Source: an uncultured Thermoproteales archaeon (GTDB lineage: Archaea; Thermoproteota; Thermoprotei; Thermofilales; CAYSTQ01). Taken from it: a stretch of DNA of 64,000 nucleotides. Shown here piece by piece: positions 18,651 to 55,715 of the stretch; position 1 is the stretch's first letter, and each line of letters starts with the position of its first letter. The notes under the pieces were generated by a model. The model did no database searches and had not been told where the DNA came from. It worked only from the letters and a program-made list of their open reading frames with translations. The position numbers and the translations under genes were made by a program. The stretch spans positions 14,279-78,278 of the forward strand of contig CAZCFI010000001.1 of NCBI GenBank assembly GCA_964497915.1, given 5' to 3'.

Positions 18651-18744
18651 GCCTCTGCATCGATCGCGCCCACTCACGACTCGAGGCCAAGCGCCTCCGC
18701 TAGGGGTAACTGGGGCCGTGAGCTCTCACACTCGTAACCGAGCA

Positions 18745-21250: not shown

Positions 21251-21292
21251 GGGGCAAGCGAAACTACACAAGTTTTTTATCCCCGACCCATC

Positions 21293-27762: not shown

Positions 27763-27805
27763 CCTCAGGGCAAGCCAAATAAGCCGATGAGTTCTATTTC
27801 TCACC

Positions 27806-33427: not shown

Positions 33428-33428
33428 G

Positions 33429-40070: not shown

Positions 40071-41552
40071 CTAGGCTCCAGTCAGGCTGCTGGCCCACGC
40101 CCCGAGGACGTCTAATATTGGCGATGGCCAGAGGCCGAGGGCGAAGCTAACGGCGGCTAGGAAGCCCATCGGCACCAGCATCGTGAGCGGAGCTTCCTTG
40201 ACGCCCTCCAGGCCCTCCCTCAGGGGGCCGAAGAAGATCCTCTTCAGGGCCCACAGGCCGTAGGCCGTGGTCAGGGCCGCGCACATGACTGCCAGCACGA
40301 CCACCGCCACCTCAGCACCCCTCGCCACGGTGAAGCCGCCTAGGAATATCATGAACTCGCTCACGAAGCCGGCGAGCGTGGGCACTCCGGCCAGCGAGAA
40401 CACGCCCACCGTGAAGAGCACGGCGGTGCACGGCATCCTCTTGGCCAGGCCGCCGAGCTCCCTCATGTCTCTCCTGCCGCCCGTCTGGTGCATGATGGCG
40501 CCAGCGCAGGCGAAGAGGAGGCCCTTGGCGCACGCATGGGAGAGTATGTGGTAGACGGAGCCAACGACCCCGTAGTAGCTGCCAGTGGACATGCCGAAGA
40601 GCATGTAGCCAATCTGGCTGATGCTGGAGTACGCTAGCAACCTCTTGATGTCGAGCTGGGCGAGGGCCATCATGCCGCCGTAGAACATCGTGACGACCGC
40701 TAGGGCCATGAGCCACGTGTGTAGGGGCCATATGGCGCTCCAGAAGATCGAGACGATTATCCTGTTGAAGGCGTACACGCCGCACTCTATCATGACGCCG
40801 CTCAGCAGGACGCTTATCGGAGTCGGCGCCTCGGCGTGAGCGTCGGGGAGCCACGTGTGGAGGGGCACGACCGCCATCTTGACGAAGAAGCCTATGGCCA
40901 TCGCCGCCGCTATCCAGGGCACGGCCCCGCCCACTGAGGGGTTGGCAGCGAGCCTGCTGGGCAGCTCGTAGATGTCGAAGGTGCCGAAGAGCACGTACGC
41001 CGCCAGGATTCCGGTTAGGAGCGACAGGGCCCCGACGTGCGTGTAGATGAAGTACTTGAAGCTGACCCTCTCCCTGTCCCCATAGCCCCACTCGGCTATG
41101 AGGAAGTACGAGGGGACGAGCATCAGCTCCCAGAACAGGTAGAACTGGATGAGGTTCGTGGCCAGCACCGTCCCGACCATGCCGCTGGCGTACAGCAGGT
41201 ACAGGGCAAAGTAGGCCCCCAAGCCGCCCCTGTGCTCCATGTAGGCCACCGAGTATACCGACGTCGCGGCAGACAGCGCCAGTATCATCAGGGCTACCGG
41301 GATGCTCAAGCCATCAGCTCTAAAGCCGAAGCTAAGGCCCGCTGAGGGGGCCCACGCGTACTCCTCCACTATGGGGCAGTGGGAGGCAGAGTACTCAGCT
41401 AGAACTATCAACGCCAGCAGGGTCGAGTAGAGCAAGGCGGCAAACGTCGCAGCGCCCCCGAGCTGCCTGCTCCTCTTGCCAGCTAGGTACGCCAGGGGGG
41501 AGCACGCCAGTGGCACCGCGACCATCTGAGTTAGCGGTAGCGGGACCGTCAT
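40071..41552 (-). CDS. nuoM: NuoM-like antiporter-type membrane subunit (complex I subunit 4 family)
   Basis: 'HTWLPDAHAEAPTPISVLLSGVM', 'KRLLAYSSISQIGYM'. 493 aa. 4-nt overlap with the nuoL-like gene. Confidence 0.9.
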   Translation of the reverse strand: MTVPLPLTQMVAVPLACSPLAYLAGKRSRQLGGAATFAALLYSTLLALIVLAEYSASHCPIVEEYAWAPSAGLSFGFRADGLSIPVALMILALSAATSVYSVAYMEHRGGLGAYFALYLLYASGMVGTVLATNLIQFYLFWELMLVPSYFLIAEWGYGDRERVSFKYFIYTHVGALSLLTGILAAYVLFGTFDIYELPSRLAANPSVGGAVPWIAAAMAIGFFVKMAVVPLHTWLPDAHAEAPTPISVLLSGVMIECGVYAFNRIIVSIFWSAIWPLHTWLMALAVVTMFYGGMMALAQLDIKRLLAYSSISQIGYMLFGMSTGSYYGVVGSVYHILSHACAKGLLFACAGAIMHQTGGRRDMRELGGLAKRMPCTAVLFTVGVFSLAGVPTLAGFVSEFMIFLGGFTVARGAEVAVVVLAVMCAALTTAYGLWALKRIFFGPLREGLEGVKEAPLTMLVPMGFLAAVSFALGLWPSPILDVLGAWASSLTGA

Positions 41553-43612
41553 GATCCCACGCCTGCGCCGATCATTAGCGAGACTACAATCAGCAGGAGC
41601 AGACCTATAATTATTTCCAGGACGTTGTAGTTCAGGTACCCCGTCTGGACCCTCCTCGCAGCGCTGAAGGCCGCCTTGAAGAGCCTCGAGACTAGCAGGT
41701 TCCAGCCCTCAAAGACGAAGATCTCAGCGAACTTAAACAGGCCCAGGGCCACTGAGCAGGCCCCCCTCGCCAGTAGCCTGTTCGCGGCCTCTAGCGAGCC
41801 CTCGATCGCGCTGCTCATCAACGCTGAGGCCCTCAGCGTCCCGCCGACGACGACCTTGTAGTAGAGCGGGTTCACGTACCACCGGTTCACGAGGAATGAG
41901 TAAAGCGCTGAGAGGAGGCGGTGCCCCTCAATTAGGCGCCCAGCGTCGAGCCTCCTGGACACGTATATCGGGTAGGAGGTGGCGATGCCGAGGGCCACCA
42001 TGGCCAGCGACAGCGCTGTCACGAGGACTCGCGCTAGCCCCTCGGCTCCACCGTCACTTACGCTCAGGTGGGCTGGCGCTAAGGCGTGGTGGGCCACCCC
42101 CTCGAGCCAGGGCGCTAGCGCGCTGAAGGCTATCGTTAGGGCCGTTAGCGCCAGGTACGGCGCGTAAAGGCAGAAGCTGACCTCCCGCACCTCGTGACCC
42201 TCCTCCTCGAGCCTCCTCAAGTGCTCGCTCTTCGGGCCCAGGAAGACGAGGCCCACCATCCTCACCGAGTAGAAGGCGGTGAGGGCAGACGCAGCGACCG
42301 CCATCGCGAAGGGCGCCACCTGGCCCGAGGCGAGCGACGCGGAGAGGACTGCCTCCTTCGTCCAGAACCCGCTCAGGGGCGGGACGCCAGCCAGGGAGAG
42401 GGCGCTGATGAGCATGCAGGCAAACGTCACCCTCATGCTCCTCCCCACGCCGCCCATCTGGAAGACGTCCTTGGTCTCGCACGCGTGAATCACTGCGCCC
42501 GACGCCAGGAAGAGCGTCGCCTTGAAGAGGGCGTGGCTGATCAGGTGGAGGACGGACGCGACCAGCCCGAGCACGTAGTCCCTAAGCAGGCCCGCCGCGC
42601 CGAGCCCCAGCATCATGTACCCTATCTGGGAGATCGTGGAGTACGCGAGTATGCGCTTGAGCTCCCTGGCGACCATGGCCTGGCTGGCAGCCATCAGGGC
42701 GGTGAAGGCCCCCACCGTGGCCAGGACCTGGAAGAAGACCACGGCGTCTTGGCAGCCCAGCCCCCAGGCAGCCCAGTGTATCACTGGGAGCATCCTGGCC
42801 ATTAGGTACACGCCAGCCTTAACCATCGTTGCGGCGTGTATCAGAGCGCTGACGGGAGTGGGGCCAGCCATAGCCTCGGGGAGCCACTCGTGCAGCGGGA
42901 ACTGGGCCGACTTGCCGAGCGGCCCCATCATGACCAGCAGCAGGGCTGGCAGTAGGAGACCCCTGCTCGACATCTCAGAGATCCAAGAGGGGTCCTCCAT
43001 GAGCTCGACGAAGCTGAAGGTCCCCGAGTGAATGTATATCAGCATGAAGCCAACTAGCATCAGCAGGTCGCCGACCTTCGTCATCACGAAGGCCTTCATC
43101 GAGCAGTGGCTGGGGGGGTAGTTGAGGACCCAGTACTCCCTCTCGTCGGTGTAGTAGTGGCCTATGAGCGCGTAAGACGTCACGCCGACCATCTCCCAGC
43201 CCACGAACATCTGAACGAAGTTGTCTGACAGAACCAGCAGCATCATGCCTCCGACGAACAGGTTCATCATGGCCCAGAAGCGCGCCAGCCCGGGCTCGCG
43301 CTCCATGTACTTGACGCTGTAGACCATTATGAGGAAGGCCACCCAGGAGACCACGTTCATCATCACGGCCGCGAGGGCGTCGACGTAGAAGCCCAGGCTA
43401 ACCCCCAGCTGAGGCACCCAGGGGTAGGTCAGGTGGAGGGGGCCGCGCTGGAGCACGTGGTGGAGCACGGCGACTGAGCACAGGGCAGACACCAACGTGT
43501 AGGCTGGCTGAACGATTACCCCAGCCCTGCGCCCCCCACCGACGAGAGCCGGAGCCGCTACGAAGCCCAGAACTGGAGCCGCCCAGCTCAGCCAGACCAT
43601 GAGCTCAAGCAA
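41549..43612 (-). CDS. nuoL: NuoL-like antiporter-type membrane subunit with a long C-terminal extension (complex I subunit 5 family)
   Basis: 'FVGWEMVGVTSYALIGHYY', 'HEWLPEAMAGPTPVSALIHAATMV', 'KRILAYSTISQIGYM'. 687 aa. Confidence 0.9.
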   Translation of the reverse strand: MLELMVWLSWAAPVLGFVAAPALVGGGRRAGVIVQPAYTLVSALCSVAVLHHVLQRGPLHLTYPWVPQLGVSLGFYVDALAAVMMNVVSWVAFLIMVYSVKYMEREPGLARFWAMMNLFVGGMMLLVLSDNFVQMFVGWEMVGVTSYALIGHYYTDEREYWVLNYPPSHCSMKAFVMTKVGDLLMLVGFMLIYIHSGTFSFVELMEDPSWISEMSSRGLLLPALLLVMMGPLGKSAQFPLHEWLPEAMAGPTPVSALIHAATMVKAGVYLMARMLPVIHWAAWGLGCQDAVVFFQVLATVGAFTALMAASQAMVARELKRILAYSTISQIGYMMLGLGAAGLLRDYVLGLVASVLHLISHALFKATLFLASGAVIHACETKDVFQMGGVGRSMRVTFACMLISALSLAGVPPLSGFWTKEAVLSASLASGQVAPFAMAVAASALTAFYSVRMVGLVFLGPKSEHLRRLEEEGHEVREVSFCLYAPYLALTALTIAFSALAPWLEGVAHHALAPAHLSVSDGGAEGLARVLVTALSLAMVALGIATSYPIYVSRRLDAGRLIEGHRLLSALYSFLVNRWYVNPLYYKVVVGGTLRASALMSSAIEGSLEAANRLLARGACSVALGLFKFAEIFVFEGWNLLVSRLFKAAFSAARRVQTGYLNYNVLEIIIGLLLLIVVSLMIGAGVGS

Positions 43613-43837
43613 GGCAGTGCACCTCTATTCAAGGGTGGGGCCGCAGAGATATAAGGTTTTACAATTGTCAAATAATCACCCCACTGTTACGTATGCGCAC
43701 ACTACAGGGTGAGGGCGCCCTCTGCTAGCCAAGGCCCATCACGACAATGTAGAGCCACAGCCTTGTCGCGCATAAACTGAACGCCGTCAGCAACGCTTTT
43801 CTCTCTGCTCGCTAGAATCTCTCCGAGGCTGAGCGCC

Positions 43838-44161
43838 TTGCGGGAGCTGCTAGTCGTGGTGATGCCCCTAGTGCTCGTGATCGTACTGTACGCGCTGGGC
43901 AAGCGAGCGGCACCCAGGCCTAGGAGGTCGAGCGAGAGGGACGCCCCCTACGCCTGCGGTGAGGACTTCCCGCCCGTGAGGCCCCACATGGTGGTCAACT
44001 TCTTCTGGTACATCGCCATATTCTTGATATTCGACATGGTCGACTTCATAGTCGCGCTGTCCTACGGCGTCGACCCCCTGTGGCCGCTCGTCTACACGTG
44101 CATCGCCATGCTGGCGCTGCTGGTGGCGCTCACATACAGAACACGGGAAGGATCGCCGTGA
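43838..44161 (+). CDS. nuoA: NuoA-like subunit
   Basis: 'PYACGEDFPP' (compare PYECG) and 3 TM segments. Start TTG 43838 or ATG 43862. Confidence 0.8.
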   Translation: MRELLVVVMPLVLVIVLYALGKRAAPRPRRSSERDAPYACGEDFPPVRPHMVVNFFWYIAIFLIFDMVDFIVALSYGVDPLWPLVYTCIAMLALLVALTYRTREGSP

Positions 44162-44307
44162 ACCAGTGTGTACGCCTTCATGGCGTTAGTGGTCCGTGGA
44201 CCTTGAGCCCACGACAGGCTAGCTCGCCGTTATCAACGCCTTCAGTGACAGAGGGCCAGAGAAAGGCTTTTCTTAAAAGCTAGGCCTTAATCGGGTAGGC
44301 GAGGTGC

Positions 44308-44775
44308 ATGGGCATAGCCTCGTGGGCGCTGAGGTCGTCGCCCTGGATACTGCACTTCAACTCGGGGGGCTGCAACGGGTGCGACATAGAGGTCGTCGCC
44401 GCCCTCATGCCTCACTACGACCTCGAGCGCTTTGGCATACTCCTCAAGGGGAGCCCCAGGCACGCTGATATACTGGTGGTCACGGGCCCCATAACTAGGC
44501 AGGTCGCTAAGAGGCTCATCAGGATCTACGAGCAGATGCCTGAGCCCAGGTTCGTCATGGCCGTTGGCACCTGCGCCATATCCGGCGGGGTGTTTCGGGG
44601 GGCGTACAACGTGTACGAGGGGGTGGACAAGGTCATTCCAGTCGACGTGTACGTCCCCGGCTGCCCCCCAAGACCTGAGGCCATAATAGACGGTGTGATT
44701 AAGCTCCTCGAGAGGCTGAGGGAGGCGAGGGGGCGTGGCGAGGCGAGAGCTGGAGGCCCTGCGCGAGAGGCTTAA
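44308..44775 (+). CDS. nuoB: NuoB-like / group-4 hydrogenase small-subunit-like Fe-S protein
   Basis: Cys ligands in 'NSGGCNGCDIEV', 'GTCAISGG' and 'VPGCPPRPEAI'. The first motif is the hydrogenase-type CxxC, not the complex I tandem CC. Confidence 0.9.
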   Translation: MGIASWALRSSPWILHFNSGGCNGCDIEVVAALMPHYDLERFGILLKGSPRHADILVVTGPITRQVAKRLIRIYEQMPEPRFVMAVGTCAISGGVFRGAYNVYEGVDKVIPVDVYVPGCPPRPEAIIDGVIKLLERLREARGRGEARAGGPAREA

Positions 44776-45229
44776 GGGGACCATAGGCGACAGGTTAATC
44801 AGCGCCAGGGCCGAGGGGGATAGGAGGGTCACCATCGAGCTGGCCCGGGACGGCTTCAAGGATAGCTTCGCGAGGGTCCTCGAGGCTATAGGCGAGCACT
44901 ACGTATCGGCCATCACTGGCGTCGACTGTGGGGACTCCATAGAGGTGATATACCACTTGTGGAGCTTCGACCTCCGCGCGGAGGTGTCAGTGAAGGTGAG
45001 GGTGCCCATGGACGAGCCTAGGCTGCCGACGGTCTGCGACGTGCTGCCAGGCGCCGTCCTCTACGAGAGGGAGGTGCACGACCTACTGGGTGTAACATTC
45101 GAGGGCCACCCTAATCTCAAGCGCCTCGTGCTCCCCGAGGACTGGCCCGAGGGCGTGTATCCCCTTAGGAAGAACGTTTCACTGAGCAAGGTTAGGAAGC
45201 TCATGCTGGGCGAAGGGCGCTCCGCCTGA
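44735..45229 (+). CDS. nuoC: NuoC-like (30-kDa) subunit
   Basis: 'YHLWSF' and 'YEREVHDLLGVTFEGHPNLKRLVLPEDWPEGVYPLRK'. GTG start overlaps the nuoB-like 3' end by 41 nt, so the start is uncertain. Confidence 0.85.
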   Translation: MARRELEALRERLKGTIGDRLISARAEGDRRVTIELARDGFKDSFARVLEAIGEHYVSAITGVDCGDSIEVIYHLWSFDLRAEVSVKVRVPMDEPRLPTVCDVLPGAVLYEREVHDLLGVTFEGHPNLKRLVLPEDWPEGVYPLRKNVSLSKVRKLMLGEGRSA

Positions 45230-45371
45230 GGCTTGCCGCGACTCTGAAGCGCAGCCCCCCGAACGCAGTCTCAGCGTGCCCTTGGCATCCCCCCTAGCAA
45301 CTCACATCAACTGACCGGTCAGCGTTGGAAAGATGCGATCGCGCTGCTACTCTAACTCAACCCCACCCAAC

Positions 45372-46019
45372 TCAATGCTTTGACAGATACTCACAGATAG
45401 CCTTGGCAAAGTCGCCTGCGGTCTCAGGGCCCACAGACGTTATGACGTTCCCGTCCCTGACGACGCGCTCGCTCACGTACTCGGCCCCGCCCTCCTTCAA
45501 CAGAGATATGAGCCTGCTGTCGGGGTAGCAAGTCGCCCTGCGGCCCTCCAACACGCCAGCCCTAGCCAGCACGCCGGGGGCTGCGCATATCGCAGCAACC
45601 AACTTCCCCCTCTTGTCGAACTCCCTGCACAGCTGCTCCAGCACGTCGAGGCCGGGGTCCCGCACCTCCCCGACGACCCTCACGTAGACGCCCGGCCCCC
45701 CTATGATGACTATGCCGTCGTAGGACTCAGCCAGCTCTCCCAGCCTGCCCTTTACGTCGAGTATATAGTAGTCGTACCCTATCCCGACAGTCCTGTTCAC
45801 GGCCAGTATGCTAACCTTGGCCTTGCACTTAGTCAGCGCATTCCTAACTGGCCCCAGCTCCATCGGCTGGTAGTTCTCGAAGACCACTACGAGTACTCTC
45901 TTGCCGCTCAAGTCGTACTGAACCTCCCCGCCTCCAGGGCTGATCAGCATGATGGCCGCGCCCGCTAGCGCTAGCGCTACCGCCACGCCTATAATCGCCA
46001 GCAGCAAGCGCCTCGTCAA
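45372..46019 (-). CDS. DJ-1/PfpI family protein with an N-terminal membrane anchor
   Basis: Nucleophile elbow 'KLVAAICAAPGVLARAG'. N-terminal 'LLLAIIGVAVALALAGAAIMLI'. Encoded antisense between the nuoC-like and nuoD-like genes. Confidence 0.85.
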   Translation of the reverse strand: MTRRLLLAIIGVAVALALAGAAIMLISPGGGEVQYDLSGKRVLVVVFENYQPMELGPVRNALTKCKAKVSILAVNRTVGIGYDYYILDVKGRLGELAESYDGIVIIGGPGVYVRVVGEVRDPGLDVLEQLCREFDKRGKLVAAICAAPGVLARAGVLEGRRATCYPDSRLISLLKEGGAEYVSERVVRDGNVITSVGPETAGDFAKAICEYLSKH

Positions 46020-46247
46020 GCTTGGCCCCCTGACCTCTTACGGCCCGTAGCCATATATCTCTTTGGATGCTGCTGGGCTAGCGCGACAATGGTAGCGCGC
46101 CTGTTAGAGGTGGGACAGCTCAGCTTTACTTACGTACATGCTGACGATCCCCACTTGGCCAGGTCTCGCCCCAGACATGGACAATACATAAGGATATAGC
46201 GGGGGGTCGCTTAATTGAAGTGAGGCCGTGGAGAGGCGCGTGGCGCC

Positions 46248-47438
46248 ATGTGTAGCGAGTACATCGAGATACCAGTCGGTCCGCAGCACCCAGCCCTCAA
46301 GGAGCCGATAAGGTTCGTGTTCCGGATCGACGGCGAGATCGTCGTCGGGGTCGAGCCGAGGCTGGGGTACGCCCACAGGGGGATAGAGAAGCTCGCCGAG
46401 AGCAGGAACTACGTCCAGAATATATACTTGTTCGAGAGGGTGTGCGGCATCTGTAGCGCCGCCCACACGACGTGCTACGTCGAGGCCGTCGAGAGGCTGC
46501 TGGGCCTCGATGCGCCCCCCAGGGCCCGCTACCTCAGGACGATAGTGCACGAGCTGAACAGGATACACAGCCACCTCCTCTGGTTCGGGATACTCGCCCA
46601 CGAGATAGGGTTCGACACGCTCTTCATGTACGCCTGGCGGGACAGGGAGCTCCTGCTGGACGTCGTGGAGGCGCTCACTGGGAACAGGGTGCTCTACGCC
46701 TACAACCTGATCGGCGGGGTGAGACACGACCTAACCCCTCATGTCGAGGAGTCGCTCAGGAAGGTTCTGAGGTACCTGCGTGAGAGGGCGGAGTACTACA
46801 AGAGGGTCGTTGAGGAGGACAAGCTAATCAGGGCCAGGACGGTCGGAGTCGGCGTGCTGAGCAAGAGGGACGCAATCGCGCTGGGGGCCGTCGGCCCTAC
46901 AGCCAGGGGCTCCGGCGTCGACACCGACGTGAGGAGGGACGATCCCTACGCGGCATTCGACGAGGTAGACTTCAACGTCGTCGTGCGCGATGAGGGGGAC
47001 GCCTACGCTAAGACCATGGTCAGGATCTGCGAGATCGTAGAGAGCATAAACGCGATCGAGGACGCTCTCAGCAAGATGCCCGGCGGCGAGATCCGCGTGA
47101 AAGCGCCGCTCAGGGTGCCAGAGGGGGAGGTCGTGGCTCGGGTCGAGGCTCCCAGGGGCGAGTTGCTCTACTACGTCAAGTCTAACGGCACGGACAGGCC
47201 CGAGAGGGTCAAGGTCAGGACGCCGACTCTTGCAAACATACCAGCCGTCTGCAAGATGCTGAGCCAGGCGTACGTGGCCGACATCCCAGTTATAGTGGCT
47301 AGCATAGACCCCTGCATAGCCTGCATGGACAGGGTCGTGCTGGTCGACGTGAGGAGCGGGGAGACTCACGTGGTCTCGGGCAGGGAGCTCCGCAGGTACG
47401 CCATTGAGTGGTACGAGAGGCGGGGGGTCGGGAGCTGA
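46248..47438 (+). CDS. nuoD: NuoD-like 49-kDa subunit retaining both [NiFe]-hydrogenase large-subunit cysteine motifs (group-4 hydrogenase large-subunit-like)
   Basis: L1 'ERVCGICSAAH' (46437-46466). L2 'DPCIACMDR' (47307-47333), followed by a 34-aa tail 'VVLVDVRSGETHVVSGRELRRYAIEWYERRGVGS'. Confidence 0.9.
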   Translation: MCSEYIEIPVGPQHPALKEPIRFVFRIDGEIVVGVEPRLGYAHRGIEKLAESRNYVQNIYLFERVCGICSAAHTTCYVEAVERLLGLDAPPRARYLRTIVHELNRIHSHLLWFGILAHEIGFDTLFMYAWRDRELLLDVVEALTGNRVLYAYNLIGGVRHDLTPHVEESLRKVLRYLRERAEYYKRVVEEDKLIRARTVGVGVLSKRDAIALGAVGPTARGSGVDTDVRRDDPYAAFDEVDFNVVVRDEGDAYAKTMVRICEIVESINAIEDALSKMPGGEIRVKAPLRVPEGEVVARVEAPRGELLYYVKSNGTDRPERVKVRTPTLANIPAVCKMLSQAYVADIPVIVASIDPCIACMDRVVLVDVRSGETHVVSGRELRRYAIEWYERRGVGS

Positions 47439-48427
47439 TGAGCGCAGAGATAGTCAAGCCCCTGGTCGAGGTGCTGGTGTACCCCGGCCTCGCATTCACC
47501 ATCGTCATATCCCTCCTGCTCGAGTGGGTGGACAGAAAGGTGTACGCCAGGGCCCAGAACAGGATAGGGCCGTACCACGTGGGCCCCCACGGCATACTGC
47601 AGCCCTTTGCTGACCTCATAAAGCTGCTCTCGAAGGAGGACATAACTCCAGGGCACGTCGAGAGGTTGGAGTACGTCGTCTCCCCCCTCCTGGTACTGTA
47701 CTTCAGCCTCGTGGGAATCTTCATGGTACCCACCGGCGCCTGGGGCGATGGGCGCTCCGTGGTGCACTTCGAGGGCGACTACCTCCTTGTGCTTACGCTA
47801 GCCACGCTCACCACCGTGTTCACGTTCTTAGCTGGCTGGAGCTCGCTGAACAGGTTCGGCGCCCTCGGCTCCATGAGGGCCCTGCTCCTGATAGCTGGCT
47901 ACGAGATACCCCTCTTCATATGCGCCGCGGCCGTCGTGCTAGACGCTGGGTCCATGTCGCTGACGAGGATAGCGGAGGCCCAGGCTGGCGGCGTGTGGCT
48001 CATCCTAAGACAGCCCATCGGCTTCGTCGCCTCCATAATCGCGATACAGGCTGAGCTCGAGAGGATACCCTTCGACATACCGGAGGCAGAGACCGAGATA
48101 GTGGCTGGCTGGCTCACCGAGATCAGCGGGCGCAAGCTGGCCCTCCTCAGGCTGGCCAGAGACGTCAAGCTCTTCCTGTTCTCCTCCCTGATCGCCACGC
48201 TGTACCTGGGTGGCCCTTGGGCGCTGGGCCAGGCCAACATCGCGGCCTTCCTAGCCAAGGTACTGCTGGTCGTCGTCATAACCTCGATTGTGAGGGCGCT
48301 CTTCGCGAGGTTCAGGATAGACCAGGCGCTCTCCGCCTTCTGGAGGTTCGTGATACCGCTCTCCCTGGCTCAGCTGGTGCTCACACTGGCTCTCAGGTGG
48401 TGGCTGCCATGTCCCTCTCGATGGTGA
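47438..48427 (+). CDS. nuoH: NuoH-like membrane subunit
   Basis: 'RAQNRIGPYHVGPHGILQPFADLIKLLSKED'. ATG overlaps the nuoD-like stop (TGATG). Confidence 0.9.
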   Translation: MSAEIVKPLVEVLVYPGLAFTIVISLLLEWVDRKVYARAQNRIGPYHVGPHGILQPFADLIKLLSKEDITPGHVERLEYVVSPLLVLYFSLVGIFMVPTGAWGDGRSVVHFEGDYLLVLTLATLTTVFTFLAGWSSLNRFGALGSMRALLLIAGYEIPLFICAAAVVLDAGSMSLTRIAEAQAGGVWLILRQPIGFVASIIAIQAELERIPFDIPEAETEIVAGWLTEISGRKLALLRLARDVKLFLFSSLIATLYLGGPWALGQANIAAFLAKVLLVVVITSIVRALFARFRIDQALSAFWRFVIPLSLAQLVLTLALRWWLPCPSRW

Positions 48428-48777
48428 GGGAGCTCCTGAGAACCCTGGTCAGGCGCCCAGTCACTAGGAAGTACCCCTACGAGGTGAGGGAGCCCCCCGA
48501 GAGGTTCAGGGGCAGGATAGCCATCGACTACAGCAAGTGCGTCGGCTGCGGCCTCTGCGCCAGGTTCTGCCCAGCCGCGGCGATAAGGATGGTCATGGTG
48601 GATGTCGGGGGCAGGAAGGTCAGGAGGCCAGAGGTGCACATATACAGGTGCGTGTTCTGCGGGCAGTGCGAGCTGGCGTGCCCCAGGGGCGCCATAAGCT
48701 ACAGCCGCGAGTTCAGGCTGGCAACGTATAATAAAGGCGAGCTTGTACTAAGACCGGAGCCGCCCGGGGGTGGCTGA
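48409..48777 (+). CDS. nuoI: NuoI-like 2x[4Fe-4S] ferredoxin subunit
   Basis: 'CVGCGLCARFCP' and 'CVFCGQCELACP'. ATG 48409 overlaps the nuoH-like 3' end by 19 nt. Confidence 0.9.
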   Translation: MSLSMVRELLRTLVRRPVTRKYPYEVREPPERFRGRIAIDYSKCVGCGLCARFCPAAAIRMVMVDVGGRKVRRPEVHIYRCVFCGQCELACPRGAISYSREFRLATYNKGELVLRPEPPGGG

Positions 48778-49009
48778 GGTGCTCATCATCGAGGCAGTCT
48801 TGTGCGCCTCCTCAGTGGTCCTCGCCATACTGGCGATAGAGCTCAGAAACACGATACACGCCATCCTAGCCCTGCTATTCTTCACGGTAGCCCTAGGGCT
48901 GCTGTACCTGGTCCTGGGCGCGACGTACGTCGCGGTGTTCCAAATCTCGATATACTCAGCCGCCATGACGGCGCTCTTCCTGGTGGCTGAGTACGTCACG
49001 AGGAGGTGA
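48770..49009 (+). CDS. nuoJ: NuoJ-like subunit, N-terminal part (split gene)
   Basis: 'NTIHAILALLFFTVALGLLYLVLGATYVAVFQISIYSAAMTALFLV' matches the conserved NuoJ N-terminal core. GTG start. Confidence 0.7.
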   Translation: MAEVLIIEAVLCASSVVLAILAIELRNTIHAILALLFFTVALGLLYLVLGATYVAVFQISIYSAAMTALFLVAEYVTRR

Positions 49010-49230
49010 GGTGGGTGAGGGCCTGTGGCGCCGCGCTGGGCGTGGCCGTCGCCGCCCTAGTGTGGCTGGCCGTCGCGTGGTCTGAGCCCCCAGTGCTCGA
49101 GGGCCTGAGGGCCCCGCTGCCAGTCACCCTGTGGAGGGAGCTACGCTGGCCCGTGCTGATCCAGGGCCTGGTCATATTCGCGACGGTCACCGCCATAGTG
49201 GCTCTGGTCCGAGAGAGAATAATGAGGTGA
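49006..49230 (+). CDS. NuoJ-like subunit, C-terminal part (separate ORF)
   Basis: The 74-aa two-TM ORF starts with a GTGA overlap. '...WPVLIQGLVIFATVTAIVALV' resembles the last NuoJ helix. Confidence 0.5.
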   Translation: MRWVRACGAALGVAVAALVWLAVAWSEPPVLEGLRAPLPVTLWRELRWPVLIQGLVIFATVTAIVALVRERIMR

Positions 49231-49547
49231 TGGGCGTGGGCGCGCCCTTCGAGCTGCTGTTCGGCACCTCGCTGGCGCTCCTGGCCGTGGGCCTCTACGG
49301 CATAGTGAGCAGGAGGAGCCTGTTCAGGATGATAATATCGCTCGAGGTGGCGTTCAACGCGGGGAACCTGAGCATAATGTCCTTCGTGGCCAGGTCTAGG
49401 AGCCTCGACCCCCTAGGCAGATCCGCCGTGCTAGTGCTGATAGCCACTGAGGCCTGCGCGCTCGCCGTGATGCTGGCTTACCTCATCAACGCCTACAGGA
49501 CGTTCAAGACCATAGACCCCTCTAAGCTGAGGAGGCTGAGGTGGTAG
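49230..49547 (+). CDS. nuoK: NuoK-like subunit
   Basis: 'LFRMIISLEVAFNAGNL' and 3 TM segments. ATG overlaps the preceding stop by 1 nt. Confidence 0.8.
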   Translation: MGVGAPFELLFGTSLALLAVGLYGIVSRRSLFRMIISLEVAFNAGNLSIMSFVARSRSLDPLGRSAVLVLIATEACALAVMLAYLINAYRTFKTIDPSKLRRLRW

Positions 49548-50992
49548 CTGTGCCCAGCGTGCTAGCCCCCCTCGCCCCGCTGCTAGCCTCCGCCATCCTG
49601 TCGCCGTTCCTGAGCAGAGTCGACGGCTTCAGCAGGAGGCTCAGGGCTGGGTGCCTGGCCTCTGCGCTCGCGTGCGCGGCATCCCTAGCGCTCATGCTAG
49701 CGCCCGGTGGGCTGCTGTGGCTAGCCGTCGACGGCCAACCCGCTAGGGAGGGGCCCTGGTTCTACGTAGACGGCCTGTCCGCCTTCTTCGCCACATTGGC
49801 GCTCACTGTGCTACTGGCTGTGGACCTGTACTCCTACAGAGTGCTGCGGGCCGAGGACCTCCCGAGCGCCTACTTCTCGCTCCTGCACCTCATGGCCTGC
49901 GGCCTCTACCTCATATTCGTGGCCGGCGACCTAGTGACGCTGTTCGTCGCCTGGGAGCTCATGAGCGTATCAACCTACGCCCTTATCTGCATAAGGAGGT
50001 CGAACGACCTAGCGCTAGAGGCTGGCGTGAAGTACCTAGTGATGAGCGCAGTGGCGAGCTCCCTAATACTTTACTCGATATCGCTCCTCTACGGGTACAC
50101 GGGGACCTTCTCGTACACCGCCATTAGGGAGGCGGTCGCGAGGATGTGCGACCCGAGGGCCGTGTGGGTGGCCGTCGCCCTCATGACGGCCGGCTTTGGC
50201 TTCAAGTCGGGCCTCGTCCCGTTCCACACGTGGGTCCCGGACGTGTACCAGGAGTCCCTCGACCCCGTGACGGCGATGTTGTCCGGCGCTGCCAGCAAGG
50301 CTGGCATCTACGTCCTAATCAGGGTGTACTACACCCTAGTGCCCGACCCGAGGCTCAGGGTCGCGCTGGCCCTCCTCTCAGCGGCGACGATGACGCTCGG
50401 AAACGTAGCCGCCCTGCTCCAGTCGGACATCAAGAGGCTGCTCTCCTACTCCAGCATAGCCCACATGGGCTACACGCTCATGGGCGTCGCCTCAGGCACC
50501 GCGCTGGGTATAGTGGCCGCGCTATTCCACGCGCTGAGCCACGCACTGGCCAAGCCCCTCGTCTTCATCTGCGCTGGCTGCTACGCCCAGGCCGCCGGCT
50601 CCAGGCGCCTCGAGTCCCTGAGGGGCGTGGGGAGGGGGGGCGGCCCGCTAACGCTCAGCATGGTCCTCGGGCTGCTGTCGCTGGCGAGCATACCTGGGCT
50701 GAGCGGGTTCATGAGCAAGTACATGCTGATAGCGTCCGCCTTCCAAGCTGGCCTCATGTGGCTAGCCCTGCTGGGGATCGCTAATAGCGCGGTGGGGGTG
50801 GCCTACTACGTGAGGGTCATACAGTGCCTCCTAAGCAGGCGCGGCTCGGCCGGGGCTGGCCCCGCCGTCAAGCTACCCCCGGACCTGGTGGCGCTGCCGC
50901 TCGCCCTCGCCAGCCTCTGCGTCCTCTTCGGCCTGAGCCCTGAGCCCTTGGTCAGGTACCTCGCCCTCGCCGCCGCCCAGCTCTCCGGCTGA
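49541..50992 (+). CDS. nuoN: NuoN-like antiporter-type membrane subunit
   Basis: 'FHTWVPDVYQESLDPVTAMLSGA', 'KRLLSYSSIAHMGY'. 483 aa. Confidence 0.9.
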   Translation: MVAVPSVLAPLAPLLASAILSPFLSRVDGFSRRLRAGCLASALACAASLALMLAPGGLLWLAVDGQPAREGPWFYVDGLSAFFATLALTVLLAVDLYSYRVLRAEDLPSAYFSLLHLMACGLYLIFVAGDLVTLFVAWELMSVSTYALICIRRSNDLALEAGVKYLVMSAVASSLILYSISLLYGYTGTFSYTAIREAVARMCDPRAVWVAVALMTAGFGFKSGLVPFHTWVPDVYQESLDPVTAMLSGAASKAGIYVLIRVYYTLVPDPRLRVALALLSAATMTLGNVAALLQSDIKRLLSYSSIAHMGYTLMGVASGTALGIVAALFHALSHALAKPLVFICAGCYAQAAGSRRLESLRGVGRGGGPLTLSMVLGLLSLASIPGLSGFMSKYMLIASAFQAGLMWLALLGIANSAVGVAYYVRVIQCLLSRRGSAGAGPAVKLPPDLVALPLALASLCVLFGLSPEPLVRYLALAAAQLSG

Positions 50993-51472
50993 ACGCCCAG
51001 CTAGCGCCAGTATAGCTGCTGCTAGCTCCCGCCCAGCCCTAGCCACCTCCTCACTGATTTCCGAGCCGACCTCAGTCGACCTGACCTGAATCCCCGCGAG
51101 GTAGGCCTTGAGTGAGGGCGCTAGCGCGCGCAGGTAGGCGACGACCAGGCTTAGAGGGACGTTGTGCGTAGTGACGAGCGCCGGGGGCTCCTCGAGCTCC
51201 TCGACCTCCCCCACTATCAGCGAGCCGGGGCTCAAGCCAGCCTCCACCGCGTCGACGAAGAGCAGCCTGTCGTAGCCGCCCCTCTCCACGAGCCGAGCCA
51301 CGTCCTCAGGCCTGGTCCCTAGGTACACCACCCTGCCCCCTAGGCCGCCGTCGCGGAGCGCGTCGGCGACTAGCTTCCCCACCGCGTCATCCCCCCTTAG
51401 CTCGTTGCCGAGGCAGACGACTAGGAAGTTGCCGCTCAGGGCCTCCCTCAGCTCCCTCAGGGCCTCCCTCAT
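50873..51472 (-). CDS. hydrogenase maturation endopeptidase (HycI/HyaD family)
   Basis: 'LVVCLGNELRGDDAVGKLVA', 'LLFVDAVEAGLSPG', 'VTTHNVPLSL'. The 3' end overlaps the nuoN-like 3' end (convergent, ~120 nt). TTG 51484 is an alternative start. Confidence 0.85.
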   Translation of the reverse strand: MREALRELREALSGNFLVVCLGNELRGDDAVGKLVADALRDGGLGGRVVYLGTRPEDVARLVERGGYDRLLFVDAVEAGLSPGSLIVGEVEELEEPPALVTTHNVPLSLVVAYLRALAPSLKAYLAGIQVRSTEVGSEISEEVARAGRELAAAILALAGRSAGELGGGEGEVPDQGLRAQAEEDAEAGEGERQRHQVRG

Positions 51473-51520
51473 CTCGACCCACAACCGAAATATGTGCGAG
51501 TTGGATAAAGTTTAGCTAGC

Positions 51521-51751
51521 ATGTGCCTGGGCGTGCCAGCGAGGGTCGTCGAGGTGAGGGGCGAGACCGCCCTAGTGGACTGCGGGGGGTACGTGAGGGA
51601 GGTGGACGCCATCCTCCTGCCCGACGTGAGGGTCGGAGACTACGTGATAATCCACGCGGGGGCGATTATAGCCAGGATTGATGAGAAAGAGGCCGTAGAG
51701 CTAATCAAGCTGTGGAGCGAGGTCGCGAGGGCTGCCAGCTCTCCTGATTAG
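51521..51751 (+). CDS. hypC: hydrogenase assembly chaperone HypC
   Basis: N-terminal 'MCLGVPARVVEV' with the essential Cys2. 76 aa. Confidence 0.9.
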   Translation: MCLGVPARVVEVRGETALVDCGGYVREVDAILLPDVRVGDYVIIHAGAIIARIDEKEAVELIKLWSEVARAASSPD

Positions 51752-55544: not shown

Positions 55545-55715
55545 CCCACTACCCTTGACTTACACGGCTCCAGTGGTTGCTGAGGTGGATATTAGCGTTG
55601 CGCTTGGTGGCGGTGAGCGGGCCCCCTTTAAAAATGGCACACTTGAAGAACCTAAGGGGCTAAATTTTATTAGCTCCGTCTCTTTTAAGTGAGAGCCGTG
55701 CAAAGGTCGAAGGCC

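What the first reader, a model, noticed from the sequence alone, without database searches (positions are those of the whole stretch)
40071..51484. Complex-I-ordered 11-subunit gene set whose NuoD-like subunit still has both [NiFe] cysteine pairs and a cleavable tail: probably a complex-I-like membrane hydrogenase
Seen in sequence:
- Homologs of NuoL-NuoM lie on the minus strand. NuoA, B, C, D, H, I, J (two ORFs), K and N lie on the plus strand. No NuoE/F/G is present.
- The 49-kDa homolog carries 'ERVCGICSAAH' (46437-46466) and 'DPCIACMDR' (47307-47333), followed by 34 further residues.
- The NuoB homolog has 'GGCNGCDIE', not the tandem-Cys context I associate with complex I NuoB.
- Directly adjacent are a HycI/HyaD-type endopeptidase, hypC, hypE (ending PRIC) and hypD. 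A 2-oxoacid:ferredoxin oxidoreductase lies 4 kb downstream.

Established knowledge:
- RxCGxCxxxH and DPCxxCxx(H/R) are the L1/L2 Ni-Fe ligand motifs of [NiFe] hydrogenase large subunits.
- Bona fide NuoD/Nqo4 has lost these cysteines and ends near the equivalent Arg.
- The endopeptidase removes the tail after the H/R of L2.

Inference: this is a ferredoxin-linked [NiFe] hydrogenase that carries the full complex I membrane arm (A, J, K plus three antiporter-like subunits) in nuo gene order. To my knowledge the characterised Ech, Mbh and Hyf enzymes do not have this architecture. Automatic annotation would mislabel it as NADH dehydrogenase.
Basis: partly seen in the sequence, partly recalled or inferred. 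Interest (0 to 1): 0.8.

Follow-up and report, generated by a model that had tools for sequence, protein, structure and literature searches.

The report
Complex-I-shaped membrane [NiFe] hydrogenase (Hfo type)
An uncultured heat-loving archaeon encodes a hydrogen-making or hydrogen-using enzyme with the full 11-part body plan of respiratory complex I; the finding is real and evolutionarily interesting, but this enzyme type was already described from genomes in 2021 and has never been tested biochemically.

Summary
Window 40071-51484 encodes homologs of NuoL, M, A, B, C, D, H, I, J (split in two), K and N, with no NuoE/F/G. The NuoD homolog has all four [NiFe] cysteines in the same columns as P. 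furiosus MbhL and E. coli HycE. It also has a 34-residue tail that aligns with HycE's cleavable extension. A HycI-type protease and hypC, hypE and hypD lie next to it.

The catalytic head (B, D) is closest to Mbh hydrogenase. The membrane arm (H, L) is closest to complex I/NDH-1, and M is only marginally so.

The kind is not new. Loh et al. 2021 (PMC7886697) named this "Hfo", an Fpo-like 11-subunit [NiFe] hydrogenase in HydDB group 4g. They found it in Bathyarchaeia, Ca. Methanomethylicus and Pyrodictium. Hua et al. 2018 noted the same in Aigarchaeota.

The window's large subunit groups with Bathyarchaeia and Methanomethylicus sequences (139/200 bootstraps). Two Thermoprotei MAGs share its gene layout.

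Verdict: a new Thermoprotei member of a known, biochemically uncharacterised kind. The ferredoxin partner and the direction of catalysis are inferred, not shown. Interest 0.35.

The parts
40071..41552 (-). NuoM-like antiporter-like subunit (493 aa)
   Evidence: Pfam Proton_antipo_M 3.4e-80. NCBIfam NDH_I_M scores 347.5 bits, above its cutoff of 263.8. Best PDB match is P. denitrificans Nqo13 at 218 bits. The TM5 Glu, TM7 Lys and TM12 Glu are present. The TM8 Lys is replaced by Glu.
41549..43612 (-). NuoL-like antiporter-like subunit (687 aa) with a C-terminal extension
   Evidence: NCBIfam NDH_I_L scores 468.7 bits, above its cutoff of 407.5. PDB matches: NdhF 298, NuoL 274 and Nqo12 254 bits, against MbhH 143. 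The alignment runs to residue ~596-613 and includes the WY..LY motif at the start of the lateral helix. A final hydrophobic segment lies at the C-terminus (read from the sequence).
43838..44161 (+). NuoA-like subunit (107 aa; an alternative start at 43871 gives 96 aa)
   Evidence: Pfam Oxidored_q4 2.4e-07. Profile hits in 47 related loci.
44308..44775 (+). Hydrogenase small subunit / NuoB homolog (155 aa) with one [4Fe-4S] site
   Evidence: Pfam Oxidored_q6 2.6e-35. Best PDB match is MbhJ at 179.7 bits, against about 141 for complex I PSST. GGCNGCDIE aligns with MbhJ GSCNGCDIE. It has exactly four Cys: C22, C25, C89 and C119.
44735..45229 (+). NuoC homolog (164 aa)
   Evidence: Pfam Complex1_30kDa 8.5e-32.
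46248..47438 (+). [NiFe] hydrogenase large subunit / NuoD homolog (396 aa). L1 RVCGICSAAH lies at 46437-46466 and L2 DPCIACMDR at 47307-47333. The predicted cleaved tail lies at 47334-47435.
   Evidence: PDB matches: MbhL 3.6e-90, HycE 7.9e-78 and Nqo4 2.2e-71. The four Cys align with the MbhL and HycE ligands. The tail aligns with the HycE extension. E19 corresponds to MbhL E21. Nqo4 His38 is Lys here, and Tyr87 falls on the Gly between the two Cys. Pfam finds Complex1_49kDa plus NiFeSe_Hases.
47438..48427 (+). NuoH homolog (329 aa)
   Evidence: Pfam NADHdh 1.1e-89, covering positions 8-297 of 298. PDB matches: NdhA 162, Nqo8 152 and NuoH 140 bits, against MbhM 90. The TM5-6 loop motif PFDIPEAETEIVAG is conserved.
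48409..48777 (+). NuoI homolog (122 aa) with two [4Fe-4S] motifs; predicted ferredoxin entry point
   Evidence: Multiple Pfam Fer4 family hits. NCBIfam NuoI 1.6e-28. Motifs CVGCGLCARFC and CVFCGQCELAC.
48770..49009 (+). NuoJ N-terminal half (79 aa; MbhD-like)
   Evidence: Pfam Oxidored_q3 1.4e-09 and MbhD 2e-04. Weak PDB matches to MbsD, MbhD and Nqo10.
49006..49230 (+). NuoJ C-terminal half (74 aa)
   Evidence: No Pfam hit. An HMM built only from split copies matches residues ~90-165 of fused J ORFs of 160-190 aa in bacterial relatives. One of those fused ORFs is a full-length Pfam NuoJ.
49236..49547 (+). NuoK homolog (103 aa)
   Evidence: Pfam Oxidored_q2 1.2e-18. Two membrane glutamates sit in ISLEV and IATEA; I read these from the sequence and matched them to E. 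coli NuoK from memory.
49541..50992 (+). NuoN-like antiporter-like subunit (483 aa)
   Evidence: Pfam Proton_antipo_M 1.3e-69. NCBIfam NDH_I_N scores 290.9 bits, which is the best hit but below its cutoff of 332.6.
50873..51484 (-). HycI-type maturation endopeptidase (203 aa)
   Evidence: Pfam HycI 2.9e-13. Best PDB matches are T. kodakarensis HycI 5zby and E. coli HycI. The GDD, VDA and THN metal-site motifs are present.
51521..51751 (+). HypC
   Evidence: Pfam HupF_HypC 1.6e-25.
52213..53229 (-). HypE (ends PRIC)
   Evidence: Pfam AIRS plus AIRS_C. The C-terminus was read.
53285..54403 (+). HypD (the ORF opens at 53213; the called start is 53285)
   Evidence: Pfam HypD 4.1e-130. Gene call.
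55689..58278 (+). 2-oxoacid:ferredoxin oxidoreductase (fused alpha/gamma subunit plus beta subunit); candidate source of reduced ferredoxin. This is context, not a subunit.
   Evidence: Pfam POR, POR_N, PFOR_II, TPP_enzyme_C and PFO_beta_C.

Best explanation
This is an Hfo-type (HydDB group 4g) energy-converting [NiFe] hydrogenase from an uncultured Thermoprotei archaeon. It has eleven subunit types encoded by twelve genes, because NuoJ is split.

Proposed mechanism:
1. Reduced ferredoxin, probably from the nearby 2-oxoacid:ferredoxin oxidoreductase, donates electrons to the two [4Fe-4S] clusters of the NuoI homolog.
2. The electrons pass to the single [4Fe-4S] cluster of the NuoB homolog, and then to the Ni-Fe centre held by four cysteines in the NuoD homolog.
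3. Protons are reduced to H2 at that centre.
4. The redox chemistry sits where complex I binds quinone. It is coupled through NuoH/A/J/K to three antiporter-like subunits (N, M and L with its lateral helix), which move H+ or Na+ across the membrane.
5. The reaction is expected to be reversible.
6. The large subunit is matured by HypC/D/E. The HycI-type protease then trims it after Arg362, removing 34 residues.

What is shown: subunit identities, ligand and motif conservation, head-versus-arm affinities, and the presence of maturation genes.

What is inferred: ferredoxin as the partner, the direction of catalysis, the translocated ion and the stoichiometry.
For: Catalytic head:
- The four Cys lie in the ligand columns of MbhL and HycE, and E19 matches the conserved MbhL E21.
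- The 34-residue tail is homologous to the HycE extension and is present in 70 of the 72 full-length relatives.
- The small subunit is of MbhJ type with a CxxC motif.
- NuoI carries two 4Cys motifs.

Maturation genes:
- A HycI-subtype protease is adjacent.
- hypC, hypD and hypE are adjacent.

Membrane arm:
- The H and L scores favour complex I/NDH-1 over Mbh. M favours it only marginally, at 218 against 204 bits.
- The NCBIfam NDH_I_L and NDH_I_M models pass their cutoffs.
- The key Glu/Lys residues of L, M and N are mostly present.

Relatives:
- The same subunit set occurs in Thermoprotei L003/L004, Bathyarchaeia L006/L008/L010/L031, Methanomethylicus L011/L013 and Nitrososphaerota L075.
- On the large-subunit tree the window groups with them: the Thermoprotei trio in 200/200 bootstraps and the archaeal 11-subunit clade in 139/200.

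Literature and context:
- Loh et al. 2021 describe this kind and name Ca. Methanomethylicus mesodigestum as a carrier.
- A 2-oxoacid:ferredoxin oxidoreductase lies 4.2 kb downstream.
Against: - No biochemistry exists for any member with this architecture.
- hypA, hypB and hypF are not in the window.
- The plus-strand cluster is split by an opposite-strand DJ-1/PfpI gene, so co-transcription of all subunits is not assured.
- The NuoM-like subunit has Glu instead of the central TM8 Lys.
- Energetics (my own estimate, from standard potentials recalled from memory). Ferredoxin to H+ offers roughly 20-40 kJ per 2 e-. That would pay for only about 1-3 ions against a normal membrane potential, not the 4 that complex I pumps. 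Either the stoichiometry is lower, or the enzyme often runs backwards.
Confidence: 0.75

Rival explanations
1. The enzyme is the same, but its physiological direction is reversed. It oxidises H2 and uses the membrane potential, through the four-channel arm, to push electrons uphill onto ferredoxin for biosynthesis or CO2 fixation. This is the role of Eha/Ehb in methanogens, and the role Loh et al. proposed for Hfo in Bathyarchaeia.
For: - Loh et al. 2021 propose exactly this for Hfo.
- A complex-I-sized pumping arm is thermodynamically easier to reconcile with ion influx driving ferredoxin reduction (my own estimate).
- A close homolog of the contig comes from a MAG series whose accessions (RLE74927, RLE74928, RLE76243) I recall as belonging to the Guaymas Basin hydrothermal-sediment study; that link was not checked here. 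That study reports H2 metabolism and group 4g genes enriched in the hydrothermal sediments.
Against: - The local context is catabolic rather than autotrophic: a 2-oxoacid:ferredoxin oxidoreductase, an amino-acid-type ABC transporter and a glycosyl-hydrolase-like gene.
- No CO2-fixation genes were seen among the window ORFs that were scanned; about twenty ORFs in 1-19000 were not scanned.
- The closest characterised relative of the head, Mbh, evolves H2.
Confidence: 0.3
2. It is the hydrogenase module of a formate- or CO-dependent hydrogenlyase. The dehydrogenase partner (FdhF or CooS/CooF) would be encoded elsewhere in the genome.
For: - HycE is the second-best structural relative, and the tail is HycE-like.
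- A cluster member of the M subunit is named 'formate hydrogenlyase' in NCBI.
Against: - No FdhF, HycB/HyfA or CooS/CooF-like gene was found in the cluster, in the ORFs scanned on either side of it, or among the gene calls on the matching contig.
- None of the probe set (window subunit, HycI, Hyp and DJ-1 proteins) matched anything further in the close relatives L003/L004, but that probe set would not detect FdhF or CooS.
- The large subunit is not fused to NuoC as it is in HycE (HycE aligns from residue 194).
Confidence: 0.07
3. It is a true respiratory 11-subunit complex I or Fpo-like enzyme that reduces a quinone or phenazine, and the cysteines are vestigial.
For: - The NCBIfam NuoD equivalog model passes its cutoff.
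- The membrane arm is of complex I type.
Against: - All four Ni-Fe ligands are kept across 72 of 72 relatives extracted.
- The quinone-site His and Tyr are absent.
- NuoB lacks the tandem Cys.
- A dedicated protease and hyp genes are adjacent.
- On the large-subunit tree, complex I references separate in 200/200 bootstraps.
Confidence: 0.02
4. It is an Mbx/Mbs-like sulfane-sulfur reductase, or an Ehr-like complex, that has lost hydrogenase activity.
For: MbsL is a detectable relative at 215.6 bits.
Against: - From my own knowledge, MbsL and Ehr large subunits lack the complete set of four Cys and have no cleaved tail. Here both are intact.
- The MbhL score is much higher, at 306 bits.
Confidence: 0.03
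5. It is a decaying cluster, with the DJ-1/PfpI insertion having disrupted expression.
For: The insertion between nuoC and the large-subunit gene is unique to this lineage.
Against: - All twelve subunit ORFs and the maturation ORFs are intact, with tight or overlapping junctions.
- An identical arrangement recurs on independent assemblies.
- A variant large subunit with 97% identity exists.
- A 228-bp spacer upstream of the large-subunit gene could hold its own promoter.
Confidence: 0.03

Closest known systems
Hfo, the 'Fpo-like 11-subunit [NiFe] hydrogenase' of Bathy-6 Bathyarchaeia, and the Hfo-like clusters of Ca. Methanomethylicus mesodigestum and Pyrodictium delaneyi (Loh et al. 2021, PMC7886697; HydDB subgroup 4g, their 4g-6)
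   Same: - The same eleven subunit types (A, B, C, D, H, I, J, K, L, M, N).
- L1/L2 motifs conserved.
- No NuoEFG or FpoFO, and no Mbh Na+ module.
- The large subunit is 54-60% identical to the Bathyarchaeia and Methanomethylicus sequences and clusters with them.
   Different: - A separate, well-supported Thermoprotei branch (200/200 bootstraps).
- The gene order is ML<- ->ABC(DJ-1)DHIJKN. Bathyarchaeia L008/L010 instead have the colinear ABCDHIJKLMN, and Methanomethylicus has ABCDHI with a divergent JKNLM.
- hycI and hypCED are directly attached.
- The TM8 Lys of the M subunit is Glu.
- The P. delaneyi sequence itself was not compared here.
Mbh, the membrane-bound hydrogenase of Pyrococcus furiosus (group 4d; PDB 6CFW)
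   Same: - Closest solved relative of the catalytic head: MbhL 45% identity and 306 bits, MbhJ 180 bits.
- Same Cys ligands, proton-relay Glu and CxxC small subunit.
- Split NuoJ, as in MbhD/E.
   Different: - From my own knowledge of the 6CFW structure, Mbh has one antiporter-like subunit plus a Mrp-type Na+ module.
- Here there are three differentiated antiporter-like subunits (L, M, N), a NuoA and a full NuoH.
- H and L score far higher against complex I than against Mbh.
- MbhL in 6CFW ends at the L2 Arg, whereas this protein has a tail.
E. coli formate hydrogenlyase Hyc (PDB 7Z0S) and Hyf (hydrogenase 4), group 4a
   Same: - Homologous C-terminal extension and a HycI-type protease.
- From my own knowledge, Hyf also has three antiporter-like subunits.
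   Different: - HycE carries an extra N-terminal region of about 190 residues, seen in the alignment offset. I identify it as NuoC-like from memory.
- Hyc and Hyf need HycB/HyfA and FdhF, and from my own knowledge they lack NuoA.
- None of the partner genes is in or beside the cluster here.
Respiratory complex I and 'headless' 11-subunit Nuo/Fpo-like/NDH-1 complexes
   Same: - The same eleven core subunit families.
- NuoL with a long C-terminal extension.
- NuoH, A, J and K are all present.
   Different: - The large subunit keeps the Ni-Fe ligands and lacks the quinone His and Tyr.
- NuoB lacks the tandem Cys.
- Maturation protease and hyp genes are attached.
The hypothetical 11-subunit Ni-Fe ancestor of Moparthi & Hagerhall 2011 (PMC3144371)
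   Same: [quoted passage not shown]
   Different: - That paper found no living example; every 11-subunit enzyme examined then lacked the C-terminal Cys pair.
- Whether the present enzyme is ancestral or a later mosaic is not resolved here.
Ech-type hydrogenases and Ech2 of Thermoanaerobacter kivui (groups 4e/4g)
   Same: They are described as ferredoxin-coupled, ion-translocating group 4 enzymes. Part of the polyphyletic group 4g shares the Ech2 gene organisation.
   Different: Ech-type clusters are far smaller: a minimal six-subunit complex.

Membership tests
Group 4 membrane-bound [NiFe] hydrogenase | L1 (RxCGxCxxxH) and L2 (DPCxxCxxR/H) motifs in the large subunit, in the ligand columns | tested here: met
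   RVCGICSAAH and DPCIACMDR align column for column with MbhL and HycE.
Group 4 membrane-bound [NiFe] hydrogenase | Small subunit with a CxxC-type proximal [4Fe-4S] site, rather than the tandem Cys of complex I | tested here: met
   GGCNGCDIE aligns with MbhJ GSCNGCDIE. Complex I sequences need a 3-residue gap and show CC instead.
Group 4 membrane-bound [NiFe] hydrogenase | Cleavable C-terminal extension together with a cognate endopeptidase | tested here: met
   The 34-residue tail aligns with the HycE extension. A HycI-type protease is adjacent. Actual cleavage cannot be tested here.
Group 4 membrane-bound [NiFe] hydrogenase | Full Hyp maturation set (HypA-F) | tested here: inconclusive
   hypC, hypD and hypE are adjacent. 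hypA, hypB and hypF were not seen among the window ORFs scanned, and the rest of the genome was not available.
Group 4 membrane-bound [NiFe] hydrogenase | H2 evolution or uptake activity, and Ni content | not testable with these tools
   This needs biochemistry.
Hfo-type 11-subunit hydrogenase (Loh et al. 2021; HydDB 4g) | Homologs of all eleven Fpo/Nuo core subunits A, B, C, D, H, I, J, K, L, M, N, with no FpoFO or NuoEFG | tested here: met
   Pfam and NCBIfam assignments. The J C-terminal half was confirmed by profile search. No E/F/G-type family appears in or beside the cluster.
Hfo-type 11-subunit hydrogenase (Loh et al. 2021; HydDB 4g) | Absence of the Mbh-type Na+ module (MbhA-C, F) | tested here: met
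   Every ORF in 40071-51484 is accounted for, and none matches Mnh/Mrp E, F or G families.
Hfo-type 11-subunit hydrogenase (Loh et al. 2021; HydDB 4g) | The large subunit clusters phylogenetically with the Bathyarchaeia and Methanomethylicus sequences | tested here: met
   In the neighbour-joining tree, the window plus L003/L004 join the Bathyarchaeia and Methanomethylicus (L011, isolate V1) sequences in 139/200 bootstraps. Support is moderate. Neither the HydDB classifier nor a maximum-likelihood tree was run.
Hfo-type 11-subunit hydrogenase (Loh et al. 2021; HydDB 4g) | The same colinear gene organisation as fpo/nuo | tested here: not met
   L and M are divergent and upstream, and DJ-1/PfpI interrupts C and D. 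Loh et al. accept non-colinear 'Hfo-like' clusters, such as Methanomethylicus, as relatives.
Respiratory complex I (Nuo/Nqo) or Fpo | A NuoD without Ni-Fe cysteines, and with the quinone-site His38/Tyr87 (T. thermophilus numbering) | tested here: not met
   All four Cys are present. His38 is Lys here, and Tyr87 falls on the Gly between the Cys.
Respiratory complex I (Nuo/Nqo) or Fpo | Tandem-Cys ligation of cluster N2 in NuoB | tested here: not met
   A CxxC form is present instead.
Respiratory complex I (Nuo/Nqo) or Fpo | A membrane arm with NuoH, A, J, K and differentiated L (with its extension), M and N | tested here: met
Mbh (group 4d) | A single antiporter-like subunit plus a Mrp-derived Na+ module | tested here: not met
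   There are three antiporter-like subunits and no Mrp E/F/G-like ORFs.
Formate hydrogenlyase (group 4a) | A NuoC-NuoD fusion, a HycB/HyfA ferredoxin-like subunit and a linked FdhF | tested here: not met
   C and D are separate genes. No such partner genes appear in or beside the cluster or in the other window ORFs scanned.

The most novel reading that the evidence does not exclude
The Thermoprotei branch represented here may be functionally distinct from the Hfo complexes already described. It has fully differentiated NuoL, M and N subunits, a conserved Glu in place of the central TM8 Lys of the M subunit, and its own maturation set.

Under this reading, its four-channel arm forces a coupling ratio too high for ferredoxin-driven H2 evolution. 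The enzyme would then work mainly as an H2-driven, membrane-potential-consuming ferredoxin reductase, or with altered ion coupling.

It could also be a direct descendant of the 11-subunit Ni-Fe ancestor predicted in 2011. That would imply that the complete complex I membrane arm pre-dated the loss of the Ni-Fe site.
Probability: 0.15. Interest if true: 0.6.

Novelty: new member of a known kind. Interest (0 to 1): 0.35.

Why it matters
Enzymes of this type are the nearest living match to the proposed stepping stone between ancient proton-reducing hydrogenases and respiratory complex I. They have a hydrogenase active site on a complete complex I body.

A thermophilic, compact example with its maturation genes attached would be a good candidate for expression, structure determination and measurement of ions pumped per H2. 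Those experiments would bear directly on how redox chemistry at the quinone/Ni-Fe site drives distant antiporter modules.

There is also a practical point. Such clusters are readily annotated as NADH dehydrogenase, which distorts metabolic reconstructions of uncultured archaea.

The concept itself is already published, so this window adds a lineage and some details, not a new principle.

Tried and rejected
- ARAGORN found no tRNA, although Rfam found one intron-containing tRNA.
- Pfam gave nothing for the second NuoJ ORF or for the 172-aa ORF. A PDB sequence search with the joined J halves gave only weak hits, with E-values of 0.014-0.56. The J2 assignment therefore rests on a purpose-built profile.
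- First-pass tblastn missed A, J and K in the bacterial relatives. Iterated profiles recovered them.
- I tested whether all loci with A, J and K plus at least two antiporter-like subunits form one large-subunit clade. This was not supported (12/200 bootstraps). Bathyarchaeia plus Methanomethylicus as a clade was also weak (49/200).
- Literature searches for 'Hfo' beyond the original paper, and for cryo-EM work on such enzymes, returned nothing further. Two recent complex I surveys do not discuss this type in the passages retrieved.
- P. delaneyi proteomics mentions 'NADH dehydrogenase' subunits. I could not tie those loci to the Hfo-like cluster, so I did not use them.
- The bacterial promoter/terminator scan was not used, because the organism is archaeal. 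I looked at the spacers by eye only.
- Structure prediction was not run. The tool returns no coordinates for judging the metal site, and the sequence evidence was already decisive.

Full report
**What is in the sequence**

The region holds twelve genes for eleven complex I core subunit types.
- On the minus strand lie a NuoM-like gene (40071-41552) and a NuoL-like gene (41549-43612).
- Diverging from them on the plus strand are nuoA (43838-44161), nuoB (44308-44775) and nuoC (44735-45229).
- Next comes an unrelated minus-strand DJ-1/PfpI gene (45372-46019).
- After that come the large-subunit gene (46248-47438), nuoH (47438-48427) and nuoI (48409-48777).
- Two short ORFs follow that together make NuoJ (48770-49009 and 49006-49230).
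- nuoK (49236-49547) and nuoN (49541-50992) complete the cluster.

Pfam and NCBIfam confirm each assignment except the second J ORF. From D to N the junctions overlap or lie within 5 bases of each other. No NuoE/F/G-type family appears in the cluster ORFs scanned or in the gene calls on the matching contig. Directly downstream are a HycI-family protease, hypC, a 172-aa ORF of unknown function, hypE and hypD. A SAMP2-like/TtuA pair follows, and then a two-gene 2-oxoacid:ferredoxin oxidoreductase at 55689-58278. The exceptions are a one-codon offset for the L1 motif and the fact that the layout is not strict nuo order.

**The large subunit is a hydrogenase subunit, not NuoD**

Against all PDB sequences, the best matches are:
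- P. furiosus MbhL (3.6e-90);
- E. coli HycE (7.9e-78);
- T. thermophilus Nqo4 (2.2e-71).

In those alignments RVCGICSAAH and DPCIACMDR fall on the Ni-Fe ligand motifs of MbhL (RMCGICSFSH, DPCLSCTDR) and HycE (RVCGICGFAH, DPCYSCTDR). Nqo4 has RMDYLHSFAH and DPVMGDVDR at the same places.
- The position of the quinone-site His38 of Nqo4 is Lys18 here.
- Tyr87 of Nqo4 falls on the Gly between the two cysteines.
- The residue aligned with MbhL Glu21 is kept as Glu19.

The 34 residues after the L2 Arg (VVLVDVRSGETHVVSGRELRRYAIEWYERRGVGS) align with the HycE extension (MTVVDVRKKKSKVVPYKELERYSIE). From my own knowledge, HycI removes that extension. I extracted 72 full-length relatives. All 72 have both motifs, and 70 have a tail of 14-54 residues, usually with an ELRRY-like core. 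The tail is therefore real.

**The head looks like Mbh; the arm looks like complex I**
- The NuoB homolog matches MbhJ best (179.7 bits against about 141 for complex I PSST). It shares MbhJ's CNGCDIE motif, whereas complex I sequences carry the shorter tandem-Cys form. It has exactly four cysteines.
- NuoH scores 162, 152 and 140 bits against NdhA, Nqo8 and NuoH, but only 90 against MbhM.
- NuoL scores 298, 274 and 254 bits against NdhF, NuoL and Nqo12, but only 143 against MbhH. Its alignment runs into the C-terminal extension that forms the lateral helix.
- The NuoM-like subunit is less clear-cut: 218 bits against P. denitrificans Nqo13 and 204 against MbhH.
- The NCBIfam NDH_I_L and NDH_I_M models pass their curated cutoffs. 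NDH_I_N is the top hit for the third subunit. The three antiporter-like subunits are therefore differentiated as in complex I.
- Most of the charged membrane residues known from complex I are present. The exception is the central TM8 Lys of the M subunit, which is Glu here and in the two closest relatives.

**The second J ORF**

It has no Pfam hit. A profile built only from split copies matches the C-terminal halves (about residues 90-165) of fused J proteins of 160-190 aa in bacterial relatives. One of those fused proteins is a full-length Pfam NuoJ. The split mirrors MbhD/MbhE. The first half also hits the MbhD family weakly.

**Origin and relatives**
- The exact proteins occur on metagenome contigs.
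- Close cluster members carry NCBI accessions from a 'Thermoprotei archaeon' MAG. There they are named 'NADH-quinone oxidoreductase subunit H', 'formate hydrogenlyase' or 'hypothetical protein'.
- The large subunit has more than 8000 database relatives at E < 1e-20. They are labelled Thermoprotei, Bathyarchaeia, Nitrososphaeria/Caldarchaeales, Baldrarchaeia and Hodarchaeota. Their names alternate between 'NADH dehydrogenase subunit' and 'nickel-dependent hydrogenase large subunit'.

Eighty species-level genomes were retrieved and probed with the window's subunits.
- **Thermoprotei (L003, L004; 70% and 68% identity):** the same ML<- ->ABCDHIJKN layout without the DJ-1 gene, and with hypC, E and D upstream.
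- **Bathyarchaeia L008/L010:** the colinear ABCDHIJKLMN order followed by hycI.
- **Bathyarchaeia L006/L031, Methanomethylicus L011/L013 and Nitrososphaerota L075:** ABCDHI with a divergent J-K-N-L-M.
- **Bacillota and Chloroflexota MAGs:** J (fused), K, two or three antiporter-like subunits, then A, B, C, D, H, I and usually HycI.
- **Atribacterota:** only J, K, one antiporter-like subunit, and B, C, D, H, I.

On a neighbour-joining tree of large subunits:
- the window joins L003/L004 in 200/200 bootstraps;
- this trio joins the Bathyarchaeia and Methanomethylicus sequences in 139/200;
- complex I references separate in 200/200;
- in the full 77-sequence tree, MbhL, HycE and the Atribacterota sequences lie outside the archaeal clade.

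Identity to MbhL is 45%, to HycE 38% and to Nqo4 40%.

**What is already known**
- Moparthi and Hagerhall (2011) argued that the common ancestor of membrane hydrogenases and complex I was an 11-subunit enzyme with a Ni-Fe site on NuoD. They reported that every extant 11-subunit enzyme they examined lacked the C-terminal Cys pair.
- Hua et al. (2018) noted CXXC motifs in the nuoD of two anaerobic Aigarchaeota bins with near-complete nuo clusters.
- Loh et al. (2021) described the type explicitly as Hfo:
  - They place it in HydDB subgroup 4g and found it in Bathy-6 Bathyarchaeia.
  - They report Hfo-like clusters in Ca. Methanomethylicus mesodigestum and Pyrodictium delaneyi.
  - They note that no 4g enzyme had been characterised.
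- Group 4g is polyphyletic. Part of it shares the gene organisation of Ech2 of T. kivui.
- Group 4g genes are enriched in Guaymas Basin hydrothermal-sediment genomes.
- I found no later biochemical or structural work on the 11-subunit type.

**Mechanism**

By homology with Mbh and complex I, electrons should enter at the NuoI clusters, pass through the NuoB cluster, and reach the Ni-Fe site. There they reduce protons. Coupling would run through H, A, J and K to the N, M and L modules.

Ferredoxin is the likely partner for three reasons. There is no dedicated input module. The NuoI homolog is exposed as in Mbh. A ferredoxin-reducing 2-oxoacid oxidoreductase lies nearby. All three points are inference.

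Direction is open. My own estimate from textbook potentials is that ferredoxin-to-proton electron transfer yields about 20-40 kJ per pair of electrons. That is enough for roughly one to three ions, not the four that complex I moves. Three outcomes are possible:
- The coupling ratio is lower.
- The enzyme needs a very low H2 pressure.
- It frequently works in reverse, using the membrane potential to make reduced ferredoxin from H2, as Loh et al. propose for Bathyarchaeia.

I favour H2 evolution as the main mode here, because the neighbouring genes are catabolic. I put the reverse mode at about 0.3.

**Rivals**
- A true quinone-reducing complex I is excluded by the ligand set, the missing quinone residues, the NuoB form and the attached maturation genes.
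- An Mbx/Mbs-like sulfur reductase is unlikely because all four cysteines and the tail are intact.
- A formate- or CO-linked lyase cannot be excluded without the full genome, but no partner genes are in or beside the cluster or in the other window ORFs scanned.
- Decay after the DJ-1 insertion is unlikely. All ORFs are intact, and the same arrangement recurs in independent assemblies.

**Verdict**

The observation and the functional reading are right, and the annotation hazard is real. The kind is already described, though never characterised. This is a new Thermoprotei lineage of it, with its own gene layout and a few unexplained details. Interest is moderate (0.35). The novelty class is 'new member of a known kind'.

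Noticed in passing
window 45372-46019 (-): A DJ-1/PfpI family gene with a hydrophobic N-terminal segment sits on the opposite strand between nuoC and the large-subunit gene. It is absent from the closest relatives L003/L004, so it is a lineage-specific insertion that splits the plus-strand cluster.
   Followed up: partly
window 51701-52219 (-): A 172-aa ORF lies between hypC and hypE. From its sequence I would guess it is helical; that was not tested. It has no Pfam hit and no counterpart in L003/L004. It overlaps the hypC 3' end by 51 nt, and gene callers call it on the public contig.
   Followed up: partly
window 40071-41552 (-), motif VMIECGVY: The NuoM-like subunit has Glu where E. coli NuoM K265 and the MbhH Lys sit in TM8. 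The Glu is conserved in L003/L004. It also occurs in one antiporter-like subunit of Methanomethylicus L011/L013 and of L075. Bathyarchaeia L008/L010 keep Lys.
   Followed up: partly
L016 3081-12489 (Bacillota MAG); also L017, L020, L023, L073 and Chloroflexota loci such as L028: Bacterial relatives also carry NuoA, a fused full-length NuoJ, NuoK and two or three antiporter-like subunits beside B, C, a four-Cys tailed D, H and I, usually with HycI. The complex-I-shaped hydrogenase layout is therefore not confined to archaea.
   Followed up: partly
window 50873-51484 (-) versus 49541-50992 (+): The HycI ORF carries an acidic, low-complexity C-terminal extension of about 44 residues beyond the Pfam domain. 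It overlaps the 3' end of nuoN by 120 nt in convergent orientation.
   Followed up: no
window 2397-2514 (+): Rfam finds a tRNA spanning 118 nt, which is long enough to contain an intron. ARAGORN run in bacterial mode does not find it. This fits an archaeal origin.
   Followed up: no
window 19085-29326 (+): A run of large genes: a DUF6785/DUF6784 protein (721 aa), a 1516-aa protein with Peptidase_M28 and FtsX-like permease domains, and then ORFs of 640 aa and 506 aa with no Pfam match.
   Followed up: no
window 32759-34187: A corrinoid-type protein (B12-binding plus B12-binding_2 domains) lies next to a KaiC-like ATPase. No methyltransferase was recognised among the neighbours scanned.
   Followed up: no
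window 54407-55544 (-): A SAMP2-like small modifier protein and a TtuA-type tRNA thiolation enzyme sit between the hyp genes and the 2-oxoacid:ferredoxin oxidoreductase.
   Followed up: no
L042 and L076 (Anaerolineae/Thermoflexales MAGs): Two relatives have an L2 motif DLCIACADR and end exactly at the Arg with no tail, as MbhL does in 6CFW. No HycI match was found by tblastn in either locus.
   Followed up: no
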